From the NCBI RefSeq assembly GCF_044647545.1, contig NZ_CP172818.1: 64,000 nucleotides of DNA. One strand, 5' to 3'. Source of the stretch: Escherichia coli (lineage in GTDB: Bacteria > Pseudomonadota > Gammaproteobacteria > Enterobacterales > Enterobacteriaceae). Of the stretch, positions 3,619-47,698 are shown piece by piece. Every line of letters starts with the position of its first letter. The stretch's first letter is position 1. Made by a program: the position numbers and the translations under genes. Under the pieces are notes generated by a model. It was not told the DNA's origin and did no database searches. It was given only the letters and a program-made list of their open reading frames with translations.

Positions 3619-4215
3619 ATGAAAAAACCGAATCATTCCGGCAGCGGCCAAATCCGCATTATTGGCGGGCAGTGGCGAGGCCGTAAACTCCCGGTTCCTG
3701 ATAGCCCAGGTCTGCGCCCCACCACCGACCGCGTACGCGAAACGTTGTTTAACTGGCTGGCTCCGGTCATTGTTGACGCCCAATGTCTGGATTGCTTCGC
3801 CGGAAGCGGCGCGCTGGGGCTGGAAGCGTTATCGCGCTACGCTGCGGGGGCCACGTTGATTGAGATGGATCGTGCGGTTTCTCAGCAGTTAATTAAGAAT
3901 CTGGCGACACTAAAAGCAGGCAATGCACGCGTGGTGAACAGCAACGCGATGTCATTCCTGGCGCAAAAAGGCACACCGCATAATATCGTGTTTGTCGATC
4001 CACCGTTCCGCCGTGGATTGTTAGAAGAGACGATAAATTTACTGGAAGATAACGGCTGGCTGGCTGACGAAGCCCTGATTTATGTCGAAAGCGAAGTCGA
4101 AAACGGTCTGCCCACTGTTCCGGCGAACTGGTCATTACATCGGGAAAAAGTGGCGGGTCAGGTGGCTTATCGGCTGTATCAACGCGAAGCACAAGGAGAA
4201 AGTGATGTTGATTAA
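3619..4215 (+). CDS. rsmD: 16S rRNA (guanine966-N2)-methyltransferase RsmD
   Basis: 198 aa; methyltransferase motifs (LDCFAGSG, VFVDPPF); divergent from ftsY. Confidence 0.93.
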   Translation: MKKPNHSGSGQIRIIGGQWRGRKLPVPDSPGLRPTTDRVRETLFNWLAPVIVDAQCLDCFAGSGALGLEALSRYAAGATLIEMDRAVSQQLIKNLATLKAGNARVVNSNAMSFLAQKGTPHNIVFVDPPFRRGLLEETINLLEDNGWLADEALIYVESEVENGLPTVPANWSLHREKVAGQVAYRLYQREAQGESDVD

Positions 4216-4474
4216 TATTGGACGTTTGTTAATGCTCTGCGTTTGGGGATTTTTAATCCTCAACCTGGTGCATCCCTTCCCGCGTCCGCTGAATATTTTT
4301 GTTAACGTGGCGCTGATTTTTACCGTGCTGATGCATGGTATGCAGCTGGCGCTATTGAAATCCACTTTGCCGAAAGATGGCCCGCAGATGACCACCGCCG
4401 AAAAGGTGCGGATTTTCCTTTTCGGCGTGTTTGAACTGCTGGTCTGGCAGAAGAAATTTAAAGTTAAAAAATAA
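4205..4474 (+). CDS. yhhL: Small inner-membrane protein YhhL
   Basis: 89 aa hydrophobic protein from ATG 4205 (GTG at 4202 also in frame); overlaps rsmD 3' end by 11 nt. Confidence 0.8.
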   Translation: MLINIGRLLMLCVWGFLILNLVHPFPRPLNIFVNVALIFTVLMHGMQLALLKSTLPKDGPQMTTAEKVRIFLFGVFELLVWQKKFKVKK

Positions 4475-4476
4475 CC

Positions 4477-4836
4477 TTATTGTTCGCCTACAAAGCTGAC
4501 AAAGCGCGTTCCTTTATAGCTCAGCGTACCTTTATCGCCCACTGTCAGGGCGTGGTACTGCTGGGCGTCGAGGCGAAACGTCTGCTCCATTCCTCCGCTT
4601 TGCGGTTTGAAGCTTGCCTCATAGCGCATACTGGTGCCTGCCGGAGTCACTTCCTGCTGGCGCGAACGGCGATCGTTAATCGGTTTTTCCCGCTTGTTGC
4701 TCACCACCACCAGCTTTTGCTGGAGCGGTGCCATATCATTATCAGCTTTTTCCCGTCGTTGTTGCATAAAACGAAACGATGCGGCGACGATGATTAAGCC
4801 AATGATAACAATAAAGAAAAGAGGTGGTTTACTCAT
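4477..4836 (-). CDS. yhhM: Uncharacterized membrane-anchored protein YhhM
   Basis: 119 aa ORF with single N-terminal TM helix; position between yhhL and yhhN. Confidence 0.85.
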   Translation of the reverse strand: MSKPPLFFIVIIGLIIVAASFRFMQQRREKADNDMAPLQQKLVVVSNKREKPINDRRSRQQEVTPAGTSMRYEASFKPQSGGMEQTFRLDAQQYHALTVGDKGTLSYKGTRFVSFVGEQ

Positions 4837-4976
4837 CTTTATCCCTCATCGGAAAATGCGGAAATAAGCATACCCTGCCAGTTATGGTGTTGTCATCCGT
4901 CCACCCTCGCCACTAAACTGGAAGCAAGACCGTAGGCATTCCGCTTACGAAAAAATAACGAATTCAAGGAACTAAG

Positions 4977-45116: not shown

Positions 45117-46469
45117 ATGACTAAACACTATGATTACATCGCCATCGGCGGCGGCAGCGGCGGTATCGCCTCCATCAACCGCGCGGCTATGTACGGTCAG
45201 AAATGCGCGCTGATTGAAGCCAAAGAACTGGGCGGCACCTGCGTAAATGTTGGCTGTGTGCCGAAAAAAGTGATGTGGCACGCGGCGCAAATCCGTGAAG
45301 CGATCCATATGTACGGCCCGGATTATGGTTTCGATACCACCATCAACAAGTTCAACTGGGAAACGTTGATCGCCAGCCGTACCGCCTATATCGACCGTAT
45401 TCATACCTCCTATGAAAACGTGCTCGGTAAAAATAACGTTGATGTAATCAAAGGCTTTGCCCGCTTCGTTGATGCCAAAACGCTGGAAGTTAACGGTGAA
45501 ACCATCACGGCCGATCATATTCTGATCGCCACCGGCGGTCGTCCGAGCCACCCGGATATTCCGGGCGTGGAATACGGTATTGATTCTGATGGCTTCTTCG
45601 CCCTTCCTGCTTTGCCAGAGCGCGTGGCGGTTGTTGGCGCGGGTTACATCGCCGTGGAACTGGCGGGCGTGATTAACGGCCTCGGCGCGAAAACGCATCT
45701 GTTTGTGCGTAAACATGCGCCGCTGCGCAGCTTTGACCCGATGATCTCTGAAACGCTGGTCGAAGTGATGAACGCTGAAGGCCCGCAGTTGCACACCAAC
45801 GCCATCCCGAAAGCAGTAGTGAAAAATGCTGATGGTAGCCTGACGCTGGAGCTGGAAGATGGCCGCAGTGAAACGGTGGATTGCCTGATTTGGGCGATTG
45901 GTCGCGAGCCTGCCAATGACAACATCAACCTGGAAGCCGCTGGCGTTAAAACTAACGAAAAAGGGTATATCGTCGTCGATAAATATCAAAATACCAACGT
46001 TGAAGGTATCTACGCGGTGGGCGATAACACGGGGGCAGTGGAACTGACACCGGTAGCAGTTGCCGCGGGTCGCCGTCTCTCTGAACGCCTGTTTAATAAC
46101 AAGCCGGATGAGCATCTGGATTACAGCAACATTCCGACCGTGGTCTTCAGCCATCCGCCGATTGGTACTGTTGGTTTAACGGAGCCGCAGGCGCGCGAGC
46201 AGTACGGCGACGATCAGGTGAAAGTGTATAAATCCTCTTTCACCGCGATGTATACCGCCGTCACCACTCACCGCCAGCCGTGCCGCATGAAACTGGTATG
46301 CGTTGGGCCGGAAGAGAAGATTGTCGGTATTCACGGCATTGGTTTTGGTATGGACGAAATGTTGCAGGGCTTCGCGGTGGCGCTGAAGATGGGTGCAACC
46401 AAAAAAGACTTCGACAACACGGTTGCCATTCACCCGACAGCGGCAGAAGAGTTCGTTACCATGCGTTAA
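45117..46469 (+). CDS. gor: Glutathione reductase
   Basis: 450 aa; FAD fold GGGSGG, redox-active CVNVGC. Confidence 0.97.
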
Positions 46470-46522
46470 ATGTTAAAGGGCTAAGAGTAGTGTGCTCTTA
46501 GCCCTTAGCTACGTTTCCGCTA

Positions 46523-46606
46523 TCAGTTCAGAAGCTGAAGCAGAAAGCGGATCAGTTCCAGCAGCGCAATTAACGCCCCAAGAACGATGATTGCTTTATC
46601 AATCAC
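46523..46606 (-). CDS. dinQ: DinQ membrane toxin peptide (type I toxin)
   Basis: Minus-strand GTG-initiated 27-codon ORF: (V/M)IDKAIIVLGALIALLELIRFLLQLLN; below the ORF-track size cut-off. Confidence 0.8.
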   Translation of the reverse strand: MIDKAIIVLGALIALLELIRFLLQLLN

Positions 46607-46799
46607 CCGTGTTCTCCATACGATGGAGTGAGAATGCATCCGCTTACTCATCCATTGCCTGTCACGGCGCATGCCCTATTGTTAGATAATGGCATTCTCA
46701 CTCCGGCCAGAGCATCAGTTAACGGCACCACCCGTACCACTGTTCAGGACTTTGAAAGCGTTTATGCGCATTGCCAGAGTGAAAATGCCTCAGAGCTAA

Positions 46800-46815
46800 C
46801 TGGATAATCATACAG
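46800..46815. promoter_or_regulatory. LexA box (CTG-N10-CAG) in the dinQ promoter region
   Basis: aaCTGgataatcataCAGta about 200 nt upstream of the dinQ ORF on the minus strand. Confidence 0.65.
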
Positions 46816-46877
46816 TATATTCAGGTTATAAAACCAGCATGTCCTTGCAATAGTTTCAGTATGGTATTAGCATTGAT

Positions 46878-46964
46878 GCGTTAGATGATGGCATTCTCAC
46901 TCCAGCCAGAGCCACCAACTCAGGGCTGGAAAGTAAAAAAACCGACGCAAAGTCGGTTTTTTTA
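46878..46964 (+). ncRNA. agrA: AgrA-like small RNA (first tandem copy), antisense to the dinQ leader
   Basis: Repeat unit ending in CCGACgcaaaGTCGG + T7 terminator; near-identical to plus-strand 46685..46715. Confidence 0.6.
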
Positions 46965-47109
46965 CATCCGGATTCGGACAAGGCTTAATATGACGATGAC
47001 CCAGTGAAAGTATATAAATCGTCACTGCGATATATACCGAAGTGCCCCCTCCGCCAGCTGAAGAAATCGCTAATTCTTGCAATGTTAGCCACTGGCTAAT
47101 AGTATTGAA

Positions 47110-47195
47110 CCGTTAGATAAGAGCTCTCTCACTCCAGCCAGAGCCACCAACTCAGGGCTGGAAAGTAAAAAACCGACGCAAAGTCGGTTTTTTTA
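47110..47195 (+). ncRNA. agrB: AgrB-like small RNA (second tandem copy)
   Basis: Second copy of the same unit with identical terminator hairpin (47173..47194). Confidence 0.6.
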
Positions 47196-47344
47196 CGTCC
47201 TGATTCAGGTCTTTTCCAATAAATACCCAACTCTTAACTCACATCTATTACCTTCCTCTGCACATACGCATTCGTTAAACCATATATGTTTTTGACTTAT
47301 CCGCTTCGAAGAGAGACACTAAGTGCAACAATCAGGAGCGCAAT

Positions 47345-47698
47345 ATGTCATTTCTGTTACCCATCCAACTCTTCAAAATTCTTGCCGATGAAACCCGTTT
47401 GGGCATCGTTTTACTGCTCAGCGAGCTGGGAGAGTTATGCGTCTGCGATCTCTGCACTGCCCTCGATCAGTCGCAGCCCAAGATCTCCCGCCATCTGGCA
47501 TTACTGCGTGAAAGTGGGCTATTGCTGGACCGCAAGCAAGGAAAGTGGGTTCATTACCGTTTATCGCCGCATATTCCAGCATGGGCGGCGAAAATTATTG
47601 AGCAGGCCTGGCGATGCGAACAGGAAAAGGTTCAGGTGATTGTCCGTAACCTCGCCAGACAAAATTGTTCCGCAGACAGTAAGAATATTTGTAGTTAA
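47345..47698 (+). CDS. arsR: Arsenical resistance operon repressor ArsR
   Basis: 117 aa; ArsR/SmtB HTH with metal site ELCVCDLC. Confidence 0.95.
   Translation: MSFLLPIQLFKILADETRLGIVLLLSELGELCVCDLCTALDQSQPKISRHLALLRESGLLLDRKQGKWVHYRLSPHIPAWAAKIIEQAWRCEQEKVQVIVRNLARQNCSADSKNICS

What the first reader, a model, noticed from the sequence alone, without database searches (positions are those of the whole stretch)
46470..47340. dinQ-agrAB type I toxin-antitoxin locus is complete, with near-identical antisense repeats
Between gor and arsR the minus strand encodes the 27-aa DinQ peptide with a CTG-N10-CAG LexA box about 200 nt upstream. The plus strand carries two tandem ~85-nt units, each ending in the same terminator hairpin, whose 5' parts are nearly identical to plus-strand 46685..46715 and therefore complementary to the dinQ leader. 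The first copy differs from the dinQ leader target by one mismatch in the 26-nt core; the second copy is more divergent.
Basis: partly seen in the sequence, partly recalled or inferred. Interest (0 to 1): 0.35.

Follow-up and report, generated by a model that had tools for sequence, protein, structure and literature searches.

The report
Known dinQ toxin locus, antitoxin swapped
This is the well-studied E. coli DNA-damage-inducible DinQ toxin gene with its two small antisense RNAs, but here the first RNA (AgrA), not the second (AgrB) as in lab strain K-12, is the near-perfect match to the toxin message, and this arrangement turns out to be common across E. coli.

Summary
Window 46470-47340 is the E. 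coli gor-dinQ-agrA-agrB-arsR intergenic region. It is 100% identical to strain FDAARGOS_497. It has an intact 27-aa DinQ ORF, the K-12 LexA operator, and two Rfam AgrB-family sRNAs (103 and 108 bits). As a locus it is already known.

In K-12 AgrB matches the dinQ leader 30/31 and is the proven antitoxin, while AgrA (25/31) is inert. Here AgrA differs from the leader at 2 of 33 positions, one of them a G.U wobble (net cofold ddG -36.5 kcal/mol). AgrB differs at 5 of 33 (-23.6), the same energy as the inert K-12 AgrA pair (-23.5).

Across 5,426 complete E. coli genomes I found four leader "specificity patches". The window type is in 2,340 genomes and the K-12 type in 1,684. In every sampled haplotype one resident agr copy matches the leader, sometimes agrA and sometimes agrB. 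I found no report of this in the searched literature.

My best reading is that AgrA is the working antitoxin in this strain and AgrB is an orphan tuned to the K-12-type leader. That rests on energies and covariation, not experiments.

The parts
46523..46606 (-). dinQ CDS: 27-aa single-transmembrane toxin, GTG start at 46606, TGA stop at 46523-46525
   Evidence: ORF list. RefSeq annotation of the identical strain. NCBIfam NF041472 at 54 bits against cut-off 30. Same peptide accession, WP_001295215.1, as most of the other sampled strains (one sampled strain has a different DinQ accession).
46470..46800 (-). dinQ primary transcript, +1 to about +331. mRNA nt p corresponds to window coordinate 46801-p, so the +44 processing site is at 46757.
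   Evidence: Gap-free alignment to K-12, combined with the published numbering G1, SD G184-G187 and 331-nt length (PMC5066626). The register was checked. The transcript ends are inferred by homology.
46476..46506 (.). Inverted repeat (12-bp arms) forming the shared gor/dinQ terminator hairpin
   Evidence: the repeat finder pair I7. Identical in K-12.
46614..46617 (-). Shine-Dalgarno GGAG (mRNA nt 184-187). It can be sequestered in the hairpin CUCCAUCGUAUGGAG.
   Evidence: Read directly from the sequence. Hairpin energy -6.2 kcal/mol, the same as K-12. Model from PMC5066626.
46625..46637 (-). Element 3 (mRNA nt 164-176, GCAUUCUCACUCC). It pairs with the leader target to open the SD in the +44 form. 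The helix is 13 perfect bp here, against 9 bp in K-12.
   Evidence: Inverted repeat I5, 13 nt and 100% complementary. Duplex -25.2 kcal/mol against -19.8 in K-12.
46681..46713 (-). Antisense target in the dinQ leader (mRNA nt 88-120), containing element 2 and the variable specificity patch (plus strand AATGGCATT, 46688-46696)
   Evidence: Repeat family D2. K-12 target G88-A119. Patch differences from K-12 at mRNA nt 106, 107, 109, 110 and 111.
46773..46789 (-). Element 1 (mRNA nt 12-28, GGCAUUUUCACUCUGGC). It locks element 2 in the untranslated +1 form. The helix is 17 continuous bp here.
   Evidence: MFE fold of the +1 form pairs nt 94-110 with 28-12. Duplex -32.9 kcal/mol against -24.8 in K-12.
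46800..46815 (-). LexA operator CTGTATGATTATCCAG, overlapping the dinQ -10 hexamer (TATGAT, 46807-46812)
   Evidence: Identical to K-12, where the operator is reported with HI 4.83 (PMC3567139). Pattern hit.
46845..46873 (+). agrA promoter: -35 TTGCAA (46845-46850), 17-nt spacer, -10 TAGCAT (46868-46873)
   Evidence: Read from the sequence. Identical to K-12, where the transcription start was mapped. It falls below the threshold of the generic promoter scan.
46881..46963 (+). AgrA sRNA (83 nt): single-stranded 5' tail carrying the patch GAUGGCAUU, an internal stem-loop, and a terminator. It is the predicted cognate antitoxin of this strain.
   Evidence: Rfam RF02891 at 103 bits. K-12 annotation b4712 mapped across. 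Duplex -59.6 kcal/mol and cofold ddG -36.5.
46989..47060 (+). Decayed copy of the gor 3' coding region, lying in the spacer between agrA and agrB
   Evidence: the repeat finder D4. blastn of 47004-47058 against gor 46218-46278: 75% identity, E = 1e-7. An equivalent fragment follows the single agr copy in E. albertii.
47077..47105 (+). agrB promoter: -35 TTGCAA (47077-47082), 17-nt spacer, -10 TAGTAT (47100-47105)
   Evidence: Read from the sequence. The hexamers are identical to K-12.
47113..47194 (+). AgrB sRNA (82 nt), patch AAGAGCUCU. It is a poor match to this strain's leader but a near-perfect match to the K-12-type leader, so it is predicted to be an orphan or secondary antitoxin here.
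   Evidence: Rfam RF02891 at 108 bits. Duplex -47.2 kcal/mol and ddG -23.6 on the window leader; ddG -36.8 on the K-12 leader.

Best explanation
The region is the chromosomal dinQ/agrAB type I toxin-antitoxin module of E. coli.

Established mechanism, taken from K-12 experiments:
- LexA represses dinQ.
- After DNA damage a 331-nt mRNA is made. It is untranslatable because element 1 (nt 12-28) pairs with element 2 (nt 94-110) and the SD sits in a hairpin.
- Removal of the first 43 nt lets element 2 pair with element 3. That frees the SD, and the 27-aa membrane toxin is made.
- A constitutive antisense sRNA binds leader nt 88-120 through its single-stranded 5' tail. This re-closes the SD hairpin and creates an RNase III substrate.

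Inference specific to this window: the sRNA that does this job here is AgrA (46881-46963), not AgrB. The 9-nt specificity patch of this strain's leader (AATGGCATT) matches AgrA (GATGGCATT). AgrB (AAGAGCTCT) matches the K-12-type leader instead.

In the population, the agrA slot carries alleles matching leader types T2 and T4. The agrB slot carries alleles matching types T1 and T3. Each genome's leader matches one of its two resident sRNAs.
For: Identity of the locus:
- 100% identical to E. coli FDAARGOS_497, and the same gene order as K-12.
- DinQ equivalog HMM hit.
- Two AgrB covariance-model hits far above the gathering score, and no others in 64 kb.
- The LexA operator, both agr promoters and the +1 to +56 leader are identical to K-12.

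The swap:
- The alignment to K-12 shows a cluster of 5 substitutions in the leader patch, with reciprocal differences in agrA.
- Mismatches to the leader: AgrA 2/33 and AgrB 5/33 here, against AgrA 7 and AgrB 1 in K-12.
- Net cofold ddG on +44 dinQ: window AgrA -36.5 and AgrB -23.6; K-12 AgrB -37.7 and AgrA -23.5.
- K-12 AgrA was shown experimentally not to alter SHAPE reactivity or translation of +44 dinQ and not to counteract toxicity (PMC5066626; PMC3567139).
- The mismatches fall in the unpaired 5' tail of the sRNA (Rfam consensus structure; folds).

Population:
- The window-type leader is in 2,340 of 5,426 genomes and the K-12-type in 1,684.
- In the 60-row spread of the concatenated haplotype query, every row with the window-type leader except the lowest-ranked partial hit also carried a window-like agrA.
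- The full K-12 haplotype is in about 1,493 genomes and the commonest T2 haplotype in about 1,209.
- In all 12 distinct sampled haplotypes, including E. albertii, one resident copy is within 1-3 mismatches of the leader. The permutation test gave 96 of 40,320 permutations at or below the observed value.
- The cognate duplex is 96.7% paired, with 12 pairs changed on both sides (0 of 500 shuffles reach this). The non-cognate copies are 85.2% paired, with 2 such pairs.
- Strain L012 has the same agrA and agrB as the window but a K-12-type leader, which then matches its agrB.
- The cross-matrix of duplex energies is block-diagonal.
Against: - There are no expression or genetic data for this strain or for any T2-type strain. 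The AgrA-as-antitoxin step rests on thermodynamic prediction and analogy.
- The analogy is imperfect. Window AgrB has 5 mismatches and keeps 9 + 8 contiguous bp 3' of the patch. K-12 AgrA has 7 mismatches, including one in that 3' part. Window AgrB may therefore retain partial activity.
- In K-12 both sRNAs lowered the level of the +1 transcript.
- In this haplotype the competing intramolecular helices are also stronger, and that could change accessibility in ways the energies do not capture.
- "Cognate" was defined as the better-matching copy, and the haplotypes are not phylogenetically independent.
- Leader and agr copies are direct DNA repeats. Gene conversion alone could therefore keep them alike without selection on pairing.
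- The genome counts for T3, T4 and the fusion class are estimates from evenly spaced row samples, not full tallies.
Confidence: 0.65

Rival explanations
1. Both sRNAs repress dinQ redundantly in this strain. AgrA is the stronger binder, but AgrB still pairs well enough (27/32, with 17 bp 3' of the patch) to contribute materially. On this view there is no real swap, only a shift in relative strength.
For: The window AgrB-leader duplex is still -47.2 kcal/mol, with a net ddG of -23.6. Window AgrB has fewer mismatches (5) than the inert K-12 AgrA (7) and lacks the extra 3' mismatch. In K-12 both sRNAs reduced the primary dinQ transcript (PMC3567139).
Against: The net ddG is the same as for the K-12 AgrA pair (-23.5), which had no effect on +44 SHAPE reactivity or translation at five-fold excess. 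The mismatches lie in the accessible 5' tail, where pairing should nucleate. The population pattern shows one tight match per genome, not two.
Confidence: 0.22
2. The K-12 paradigm holds unchanged: AgrB remains the functional antitoxin here, for example because its expression level or stability matters more than 5 mismatches. AgrA's closer match would then be an incidental result of gene conversion between repeats.
For: AgrB is the only experimentally validated antitoxin. Leader and agrA are direct repeats 199 nt apart, so conversion is plausible.
Against: The energy gap is 13 kcal/mol in favour of AgrA. The same sRNA pair occurs with a K-12-type leader in L012, which shows that window AgrB is tuned to that other leader. 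In E. albertii and in single-copy E. coli variants, the only agr copy sits in the agrA position and matches the leader.
Confidence: 0.07
3. The locus is drifting or decaying in this lineage and the patch differences have no regulatory meaning. dinQ would be effectively silent or unregulated by either sRNA.
For: About 15% of E. coli genomes carry a leader::agr fusion that deletes the dinQ promoter. This shows the module is dispensable.
Against: Every functional element is intact here, and the peptide is unchanged. The substitutions are concentrated in the pairing patch and compensated in one sRNA. The patch also improves pairing with elements 1 and 3 rather than degrading it.
Confidence: 0.05

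Closest known systems
dinQ/agrAB type I toxin-antitoxin locus of E. coli K-12 (Weel-Sneve 2013, PMC3567139; Kristiansen 2016, PMC5066626)
   Same: It is the orthologous locus, with the same flanking genes (gor, arsR) and an identical DinQ peptide. The LexA operator, the agr promoters and terminators, the four-element RNA switch and the 5'-to-5' antisense geometry are all shared.
   Different: The 9-nt specificity patch of the leader differs at 5 positions. The near-perfect partner is AgrA instead of AgrB. The intramolecular helices 1:2 and 2:3 are longer: 17 and 13 bp, against 13 and 9 bp.
zor/orz type I systems (paralogous toxin-sRNA pairs with discriminating pairing regions; orphan OrzP-like sRNA in MG1655, PMC11264685)
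   Same: Both have tandem or paralogous antitoxin sRNAs whose short 5' pairing regions set which toxin mRNA is repressed. Both include antitoxin copies without a cognate toxin in the same genome (the specificity point is from my own knowledge of Wen et al. 2014 and was not checked here).
   Different: In zor/orz each sRNA normally has its own toxin gene alongside. Here a single toxin gene faces two sRNA slots, and the toxin leader allele decides which slot is cognate.
tisB/istR-1 (SOS-induced type I toxin of E. coli)
   Same: Both are LexA-controlled. Both have an inert primary transcript activated by 5' processing (+42 in tisB, +44 in dinQ). Both have a divergently encoded sRNA that blocks translation and triggers RNase III cleavage (discussion of PMC5066626).
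   Different: The sequences are unrelated. tisB uses a ribosome standby site rather than the element 2/3/4 switch, and it has a single antitoxin gene.
dql (dinQ-like) loci of Enterobacteriaceae, e.g. Citrobacter werkmanii (locus L026)
   Same: The leader architecture is the same, with two agr-like sRNA genes downstream. The first is near-identical to its own leader target. Element 2, element 3 and the sRNA covary (CTTCCTCC with GGAGGAA).
   Different: The peptide and genomic context differ. This locus was not examined further.

Membership tests
dinQ/agrAB type I toxin-antitoxin system | Small hydrophobic DinQ toxin ORF (27 aa, GTG start) preceded by an SD | tested here: met
   ORF at 46523-46606. 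NCBIfam equivalog NF041472 at 54 bits against cut-off 30. GGAG lies 7 nt upstream of the GTG.
dinQ/agrAB type I toxin-antitoxin system | Location in the gor-arsR intergenic region, with dinQ divergent from the agr genes | tested here: met
   ORFs and annotations.
dinQ/agrAB type I toxin-antitoxin system | LexA operator overlapping the dinQ promoter (SOS control) | tested here: met
   The sequence at 46800-46815 is identical to the K-12 operator (PMC3567139). LexA binding itself cannot be tested here. The second, weak operator region differs from K-12 at 46818 and 46821.
dinQ/agrAB type I toxin-antitoxin system | Trans-encoded sRNA of the AgrB family (Rfam RF02891) with a rho-independent terminator | tested here: met
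   Two full-length hits at 103 and 108 bits, gathering score 40.
dinQ/agrAB type I toxin-antitoxin system | About 31-34 nt of complementarity between the sRNA 5' end and dinQ leader nt 88-119 | tested here: met
   AgrA pairs at 31 of 32 positions, counting one G.U. AgrB matches at 27 of 32. The duplexes are -59.6 and -47.2 kcal/mol.
dinQ/agrAB type I toxin-antitoxin system | Four-element mutually exclusive RNA switch (1:2, 2:3, 3:4) in the 5' UTR | tested here: met
   All four elements are present. The 1:2 duplex is -32.9, the 2:3 duplex -25.2 and the SD hairpin -6.2 kcal/mol. Global MFE folds were not relied on.
dinQ/agrAB type I toxin-antitoxin system | AgrB (second copy) is the antitoxin and AgrA is inactive (the K-12 definition) | tested here: not met
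   By predicted pairing, the relationship is reversed in this haplotype. Activity itself cannot be tested here.
dinQ/agrAB type I toxin-antitoxin system | Toxicity of DinQ, expression of the sRNAs, RNase III cleavage of the duplex | not testable with these tools
   This needs northern blots, genetics or in vitro assays.

The most novel reading that the evidence does not exclude
agrA and agrB are not "one antitoxin plus a functionless paralog". They are two slots of a specificity repertoire.

E. coli carries at least four dinQ-leader alleles:
- T1, AAGAACTCT
- T2, AATGGCATT
- T3, GTGGGCATT
- T4, GACGACTAT

The agrA slot holds T2- or T4-type antitoxins. The agrB slot holds T1- or T3-type antitoxins. 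Recombination shuffles leaders and sRNA sets, and only combinations that keep one cognate pair survive.

On this view K-12's "inactive" AgrA is an orphan T4-type antitoxin, and this window's AgrB is an orphan T1-type antitoxin. The AgrB-centred model would then describe only about a third to two-fifths of E. coli genomes.
Probability: 0.5. Interest if true: 0.55.

Novelty: new variant of a known kind. Interest (0 to 1): 0.4.

Why it matters

What matters is that the functional label attached to it comes from one laboratory lineage: "AgrB is the antitoxin, AgrA does nothing".

If the pairing logic holds, roughly half of sequenced E. coli use the AgrA slot. These include O157:H7, O26, O111 and other phylogenetically diverse isolates that carry the window-type leader.

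The practical consequences:
- Knock-out designs, sRNA annotation and toxin-antitoxin databases that copy the K-12 assignment would be wrong for those strains. PGAP annotates neither sRNA outside K-12.
- The never-explained existence of AgrA gets a concrete, testable explanation.
- The locus becomes a compact natural example of how a toxin mRNA and its RNA antitoxins diversify in specificity without passing through an unprotected state.

Tried and rejected
1. The generic promoter/terminator scan missed the mapped agrA and agrB promoters and all three terminators. I did not use it as evidence either way.

2. Enrichment of the LexA pattern was not significant. The operator call rests on identity with K-12.

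Only E. albertii and Citrobacter werkmanii were usable, so I could not reconstruct the ancestral state across Escherichia species.

4. Global MFE folding of +44 dinQ did not reproduce the published SHAPE-supported 2:3 stem for K-12. I therefore relied on local helix energies rather than whole-molecule folds.

5. I considered that the window-type leader might be a rare strain oddity. This was rejected: it is the commonest leader type. The exact three-part haplotype of the window is uncommon, though (139 records at >=99% identity over 1 kb; about 3 of 60 spread rows).

6. I looked for prior description of the swap. T1TAdb notes the paralog problem and picks the more stable of the two predicted sRNAs. 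I found no explicit report. The library lacks most subscription-journal papers, so absence is not proof.

7. No protein-level homology, structure or viral or metagenome searches were needed.

Full report
**What is there**

The stretch 46470-47340 lies between the end of glutathione reductase (gor, 45117-46469) and arsR (47345-47698). A 1-kb query around it is 100% identical to E. coli FDAARGOS_497. It matches 5,422 of 5,426 complete E. coli genomes, and RefSeq annotates gorA, dinQ and arsR under the match. In K-12 MG1655 the same interval carries dinQ (b4613), agrA (b4712) and agrB (b4713). The window aligns to that K-12 interval with three gap columns in 913 (one single-base and one two-base indel) and about 97% identity.

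**Checking the observation**

- **DinQ ORF.** The minus-strand ORF 46523-46606 encodes VIDKAIIVLGALIALLELIRFLLQLLN. It matches the NCBIfam DinQ equivalog at 54 bits against a cut-off of 30.
- **Coordinate register.** The published numbering (SD G184-G187, 331-nt transcript; PMC5066626) maps as mRNA nt p = window 46801-p. So +1 is 46800, the +44 processing site is 46757, and the antisense target nt 88-120 is 46681-46713.
- **LexA box.** The CTG-N10-CAG box at 46800-46815 is identical to the K-12 operator (HI 4.83) and overlaps the -10 hexamer. The motif alone is not enriched in the window (8 found, 5.3 expected).
- **The two sRNA units.** Two plus-strand units, 46881-46965 and 47113-47196, match Rfam RF02891 (AgrB) end to end at 103 and 108 bits. 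Nothing else in the 64 kb does.
- **The triple repeat.** The 33-nt repeat sits at 46681-46713, 46880-46912 and 47112-47144. Copies 2 and 3 are 94% and 85% identical to the leader copy. The 18-nt core occurs three times against 0.12 expected.

The two units are 232 nt apart start to start, not head-to-tail.

In K-12 the leader is 30/31 complementary to AgrB and 25/31 to AgrA. Only AgrB represses the translatable +44 dinQ RNA and counteracts toxicity (PMC3567139). AgrA changes neither SHAPE reactivity nor translation of +44 dinQ even at five-fold excess (PMC5066626).

The alignment shows that the window differs from K-12 by a tight cluster of substitutions in the leader, at mRNA nt 106, 107, 109, 110 and 111. 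There are matching differences in agrA.

| Strain | Leader patch | agrA patch | agrB patch |
|---|---|---|---|
| K-12 | AAGAACTCT | GATGGCTAT | AAGAACTCT |
| Window | AATGGCATT | GATGGCATT | AAGAGCTCT |

The mismatch counts and energies reverse with it.

| Pair | Differences from leader | Duplex (kcal/mol) | Net cofold ddG on +44 (kcal/mol) |
|---|---|---|---|
| Window AgrA | 2 (one G.U wobble, one A.C) | -59.6 | -36.5 |
| Window AgrB | 5 | -47.2 | -23.6 |
| K-12 AgrB | 1 | -59.7 | -37.7 |
| K-12 AgrA | 7 | -44.2 | -23.5 |

So the weak pair in this window has the same predicted strength as the pair shown experimentally to be inert. The strong pair equals the validated antitoxin pair. The patch lies in the unpaired 5' tail of the sRNA, where antisense pairing is expected to start.

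**Is this a strain oddity?**

No. The leader and haplotype classes in 5,426 complete genomes are:

| Class | Approximate genomes |
|---|---|
| T2 leader 55-mer (window type) | 2,340 (1,904 at >=99% identity) |
| T1 leader 55-mer (K-12 type) | 1,684 |
| Full K-12 three-part haplotype | 1,493 |
| Commonest T2 three-part haplotype (agrA AATGGCATT, K-12-type agrB) | 1,209 |
| Exact window three-part haplotype | 150-230 |
| O157:H7 variant | 300 |
| T3 (GTGGGCATT) | 300 |
| T4 (GACGACTAT) | 430 |

The haplotype counts come from concatenated 173-nt queries (leader + agrA + agrB segments) read off evenly spaced row samples.

Seventeen E. coli loci were fetched and parsed. In every one with an intact leader, one resident agr copy is within 1-3 mismatches of the leader, and the other copy, if present, is at 4-7.
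- The cognate copy is agrA for T2 and T4.
- The cognate copy is agrB for T1 and T3.
- All four sRNA-slot combinations occur.
- Strain L012 has exactly the window's agrA and agrB but a T1 leader, which then matches its agrB.
- K-12's "inactive" AgrA is best matched to the T4 leader (-54.9 kcal/mol).

Statistical support:
- Shuffling leaders among the eight distinct two-copy sRNA sets reaches the observed fit in 96 of 40,320 permutations.
- On an sRNA/target pseudo-hairpin alignment of 11 haplotypes, including E. albertii and a Citrobacter dinQ-like locus, the cognate duplex is 96.7% paired. It has 12 pairs changed on both sides, and 0 of 500 shuffles reach this.
- The non-cognate copies are 85.2% paired, with 2 such pairs. 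That is at or below the shuffle expectation.

Caveats:
- "Cognate" was chosen as the better match.
- The haplotypes share ancestry.
- Leader and agr are direct DNA repeats, so gene conversion can preserve complementarity without selection.

**Mechanism**

Shown in K-12 and carried over by sequence identity:
- LexA control.
- An inert +1 mRNA locked by the 1:2 helix.
- 5' processing at +44.
- The 2:3 helix opening the SD.
- The sRNA binding nt 88-119, which re-closes the SD hairpin and licenses RNase III cleavage.

Inferred here:
- AgrA performs the sRNA role in this strain.
- The T2 patch (mRNA AAUGCC) is also complementary to GGCAUU in element 1 and GCAUU in element 3.
- As a result the 1:2 helix grows to 17 bp (-32.9 kcal/mol, against -24.8 in K-12) and the 2:3 helix to 13 bp (-25.2, against -19.8).
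- Elements 1 and 3 and the agr 5' ends are therefore all copies of one motif competing for element 2. The K-12 patch is the one that fits only its sRNA.
- Whether the stronger internal helices change the kinetics of AgrA access is unknown.

**Rivals**

| Reading | Probability |
|---|---|
| Both sRNAs act redundantly | about 0.22 |
| AgrB is still the antitoxin | about 0.07 |
| The locus is drifting | about 0.05 |

The main reason to keep the first rival open is that window AgrB has two fewer mismatches than K-12 AgrA and keeps 17 bp 3' of the patch.

**Comparison with the literature**

The two primary papers, the T1TAdb paper and the other dinQ/agr papers retrievable here all use the K-12 assignment.
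- Kristiansen et al. state that E. coli and Shigella hits are "almost 100% similar" to MG1655 dinQ.
- T1TAdb acknowledges the AgrA paralog and simply keeps the more stable predicted partner.
- I found no explicit description of leader alleles or of AgrA being the better partner.
- The library is incomplete, so this is absence of evidence only.

**Verdict**

As a locus this is already known and complete. As an allele it is a variant in which the antitoxin assignment is predicted to be swapped, and that variant is widespread. Confidence that it is the dinQ/agrAB module is about 0.98. Confidence that AgrA is the principal antitoxin here is about 0.65. Interest is moderate, at 0.4.

Noticed in passing
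window 46989-47060 (compare gor 46203-46283); L027 about 4000-4090: The spacer between agrA and agrB contains a decayed copy of the gor 3' coding region (75% identity over 61 nt, E = 1e-7). The small ORF 47004-47099 even begins VKVYKSS, echoing the gor-encoded VKVYKSSF. E. albertii, which has a single agr copy, also has a gor 3' pseudo-fragment, including the stop codon, right after it. This suggests the dinQ-agr cassette is bracketed by a duplicated gor end, from an old insertion or duplication event.
   Followed up: partly
L011 1782-1860 (E. coli SCU-176); counts: In roughly 800 of 5,426 genomes the leader repeat is fused directly to an agr copy. The recombination between the direct repeats deletes the dinQ promoter, the LexA box and the first ~88 nt of the mRNA, together with the agr promoter. 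RefSeq still annotates an intact dinQ CDS in these genomes.
   Followed up: partly
L009 (single agr, about 231-nt deletion), L010 and L015 (agrA only; arsR and arsB missing, arsC adjacent): Copy-number variants exist. Some strains have one agr copy from agrA/agrB recombination. Others lack agrB together with arsRB. In each sampled case the remaining copy still matches the leader.
   Followed up: partly
window 46985-47045, compared across sampled loci: The agrA-agrB spacer exists as two very divergent alleles. These assort independently of the leader and agr patches; for example, L004 has the window's patches but the other spacer. The locus is therefore a recombination mosaic.
   Followed up: no
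window 46904 and 47136 against 46705 (sRNA nt 24 against dinQ C96): An A.C mismatch in the middle of the sRNA-leader duplex is conserved in 10 of 11 cognate pairs (pair 25/46). Only L008/L014 have a G-C pair at this position. I tested no explanation for why a mismatch would be maintained.
   Followed up: no
L026 (Citrobacter werkmanii), reverse strand around 4300-4900: A dinQ-like locus has two agr-like sRNA genes. The first is near-identical to its own leader target (CTTCCTCC core, with a matching GGAGGAA upstream of the SD). The second resembles the E. coli type (CTCACTCC core). This is another case of one cognate and one non-cognate antitoxin.
   Followed up: partly
window 46818 and 46821: There are two substitutions relative to K-12 in the stretch immediately upstream of the main LexA box. 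The second, weak LexA operator (HI 13.82) was reported in close proximity to that box. The effect on SOS control was not evaluated.
   Followed up: no
L007 686-901, L016 718-933; several rows: RefSeq/PGAP annotates a "hypothetical protein" CDS across the agrA region or the dinQ leader in some genomes. It annotates neither agrA nor agrB outside K-12. These CDSs are probably spurious calls over RNA genes.
   Followed up: no
L006 (O157:H7-like haplotype): The leader patch is AATGGTATT, one step away from its AgrA (3 mismatches, -52.9 kcal/mol). AgrB is T3-type (5 mismatches, -47.3 kcal/mol). This is the least clear-cut cognate pair in the sample, so dinQ control may be looser in this lineage.
   Followed up: no
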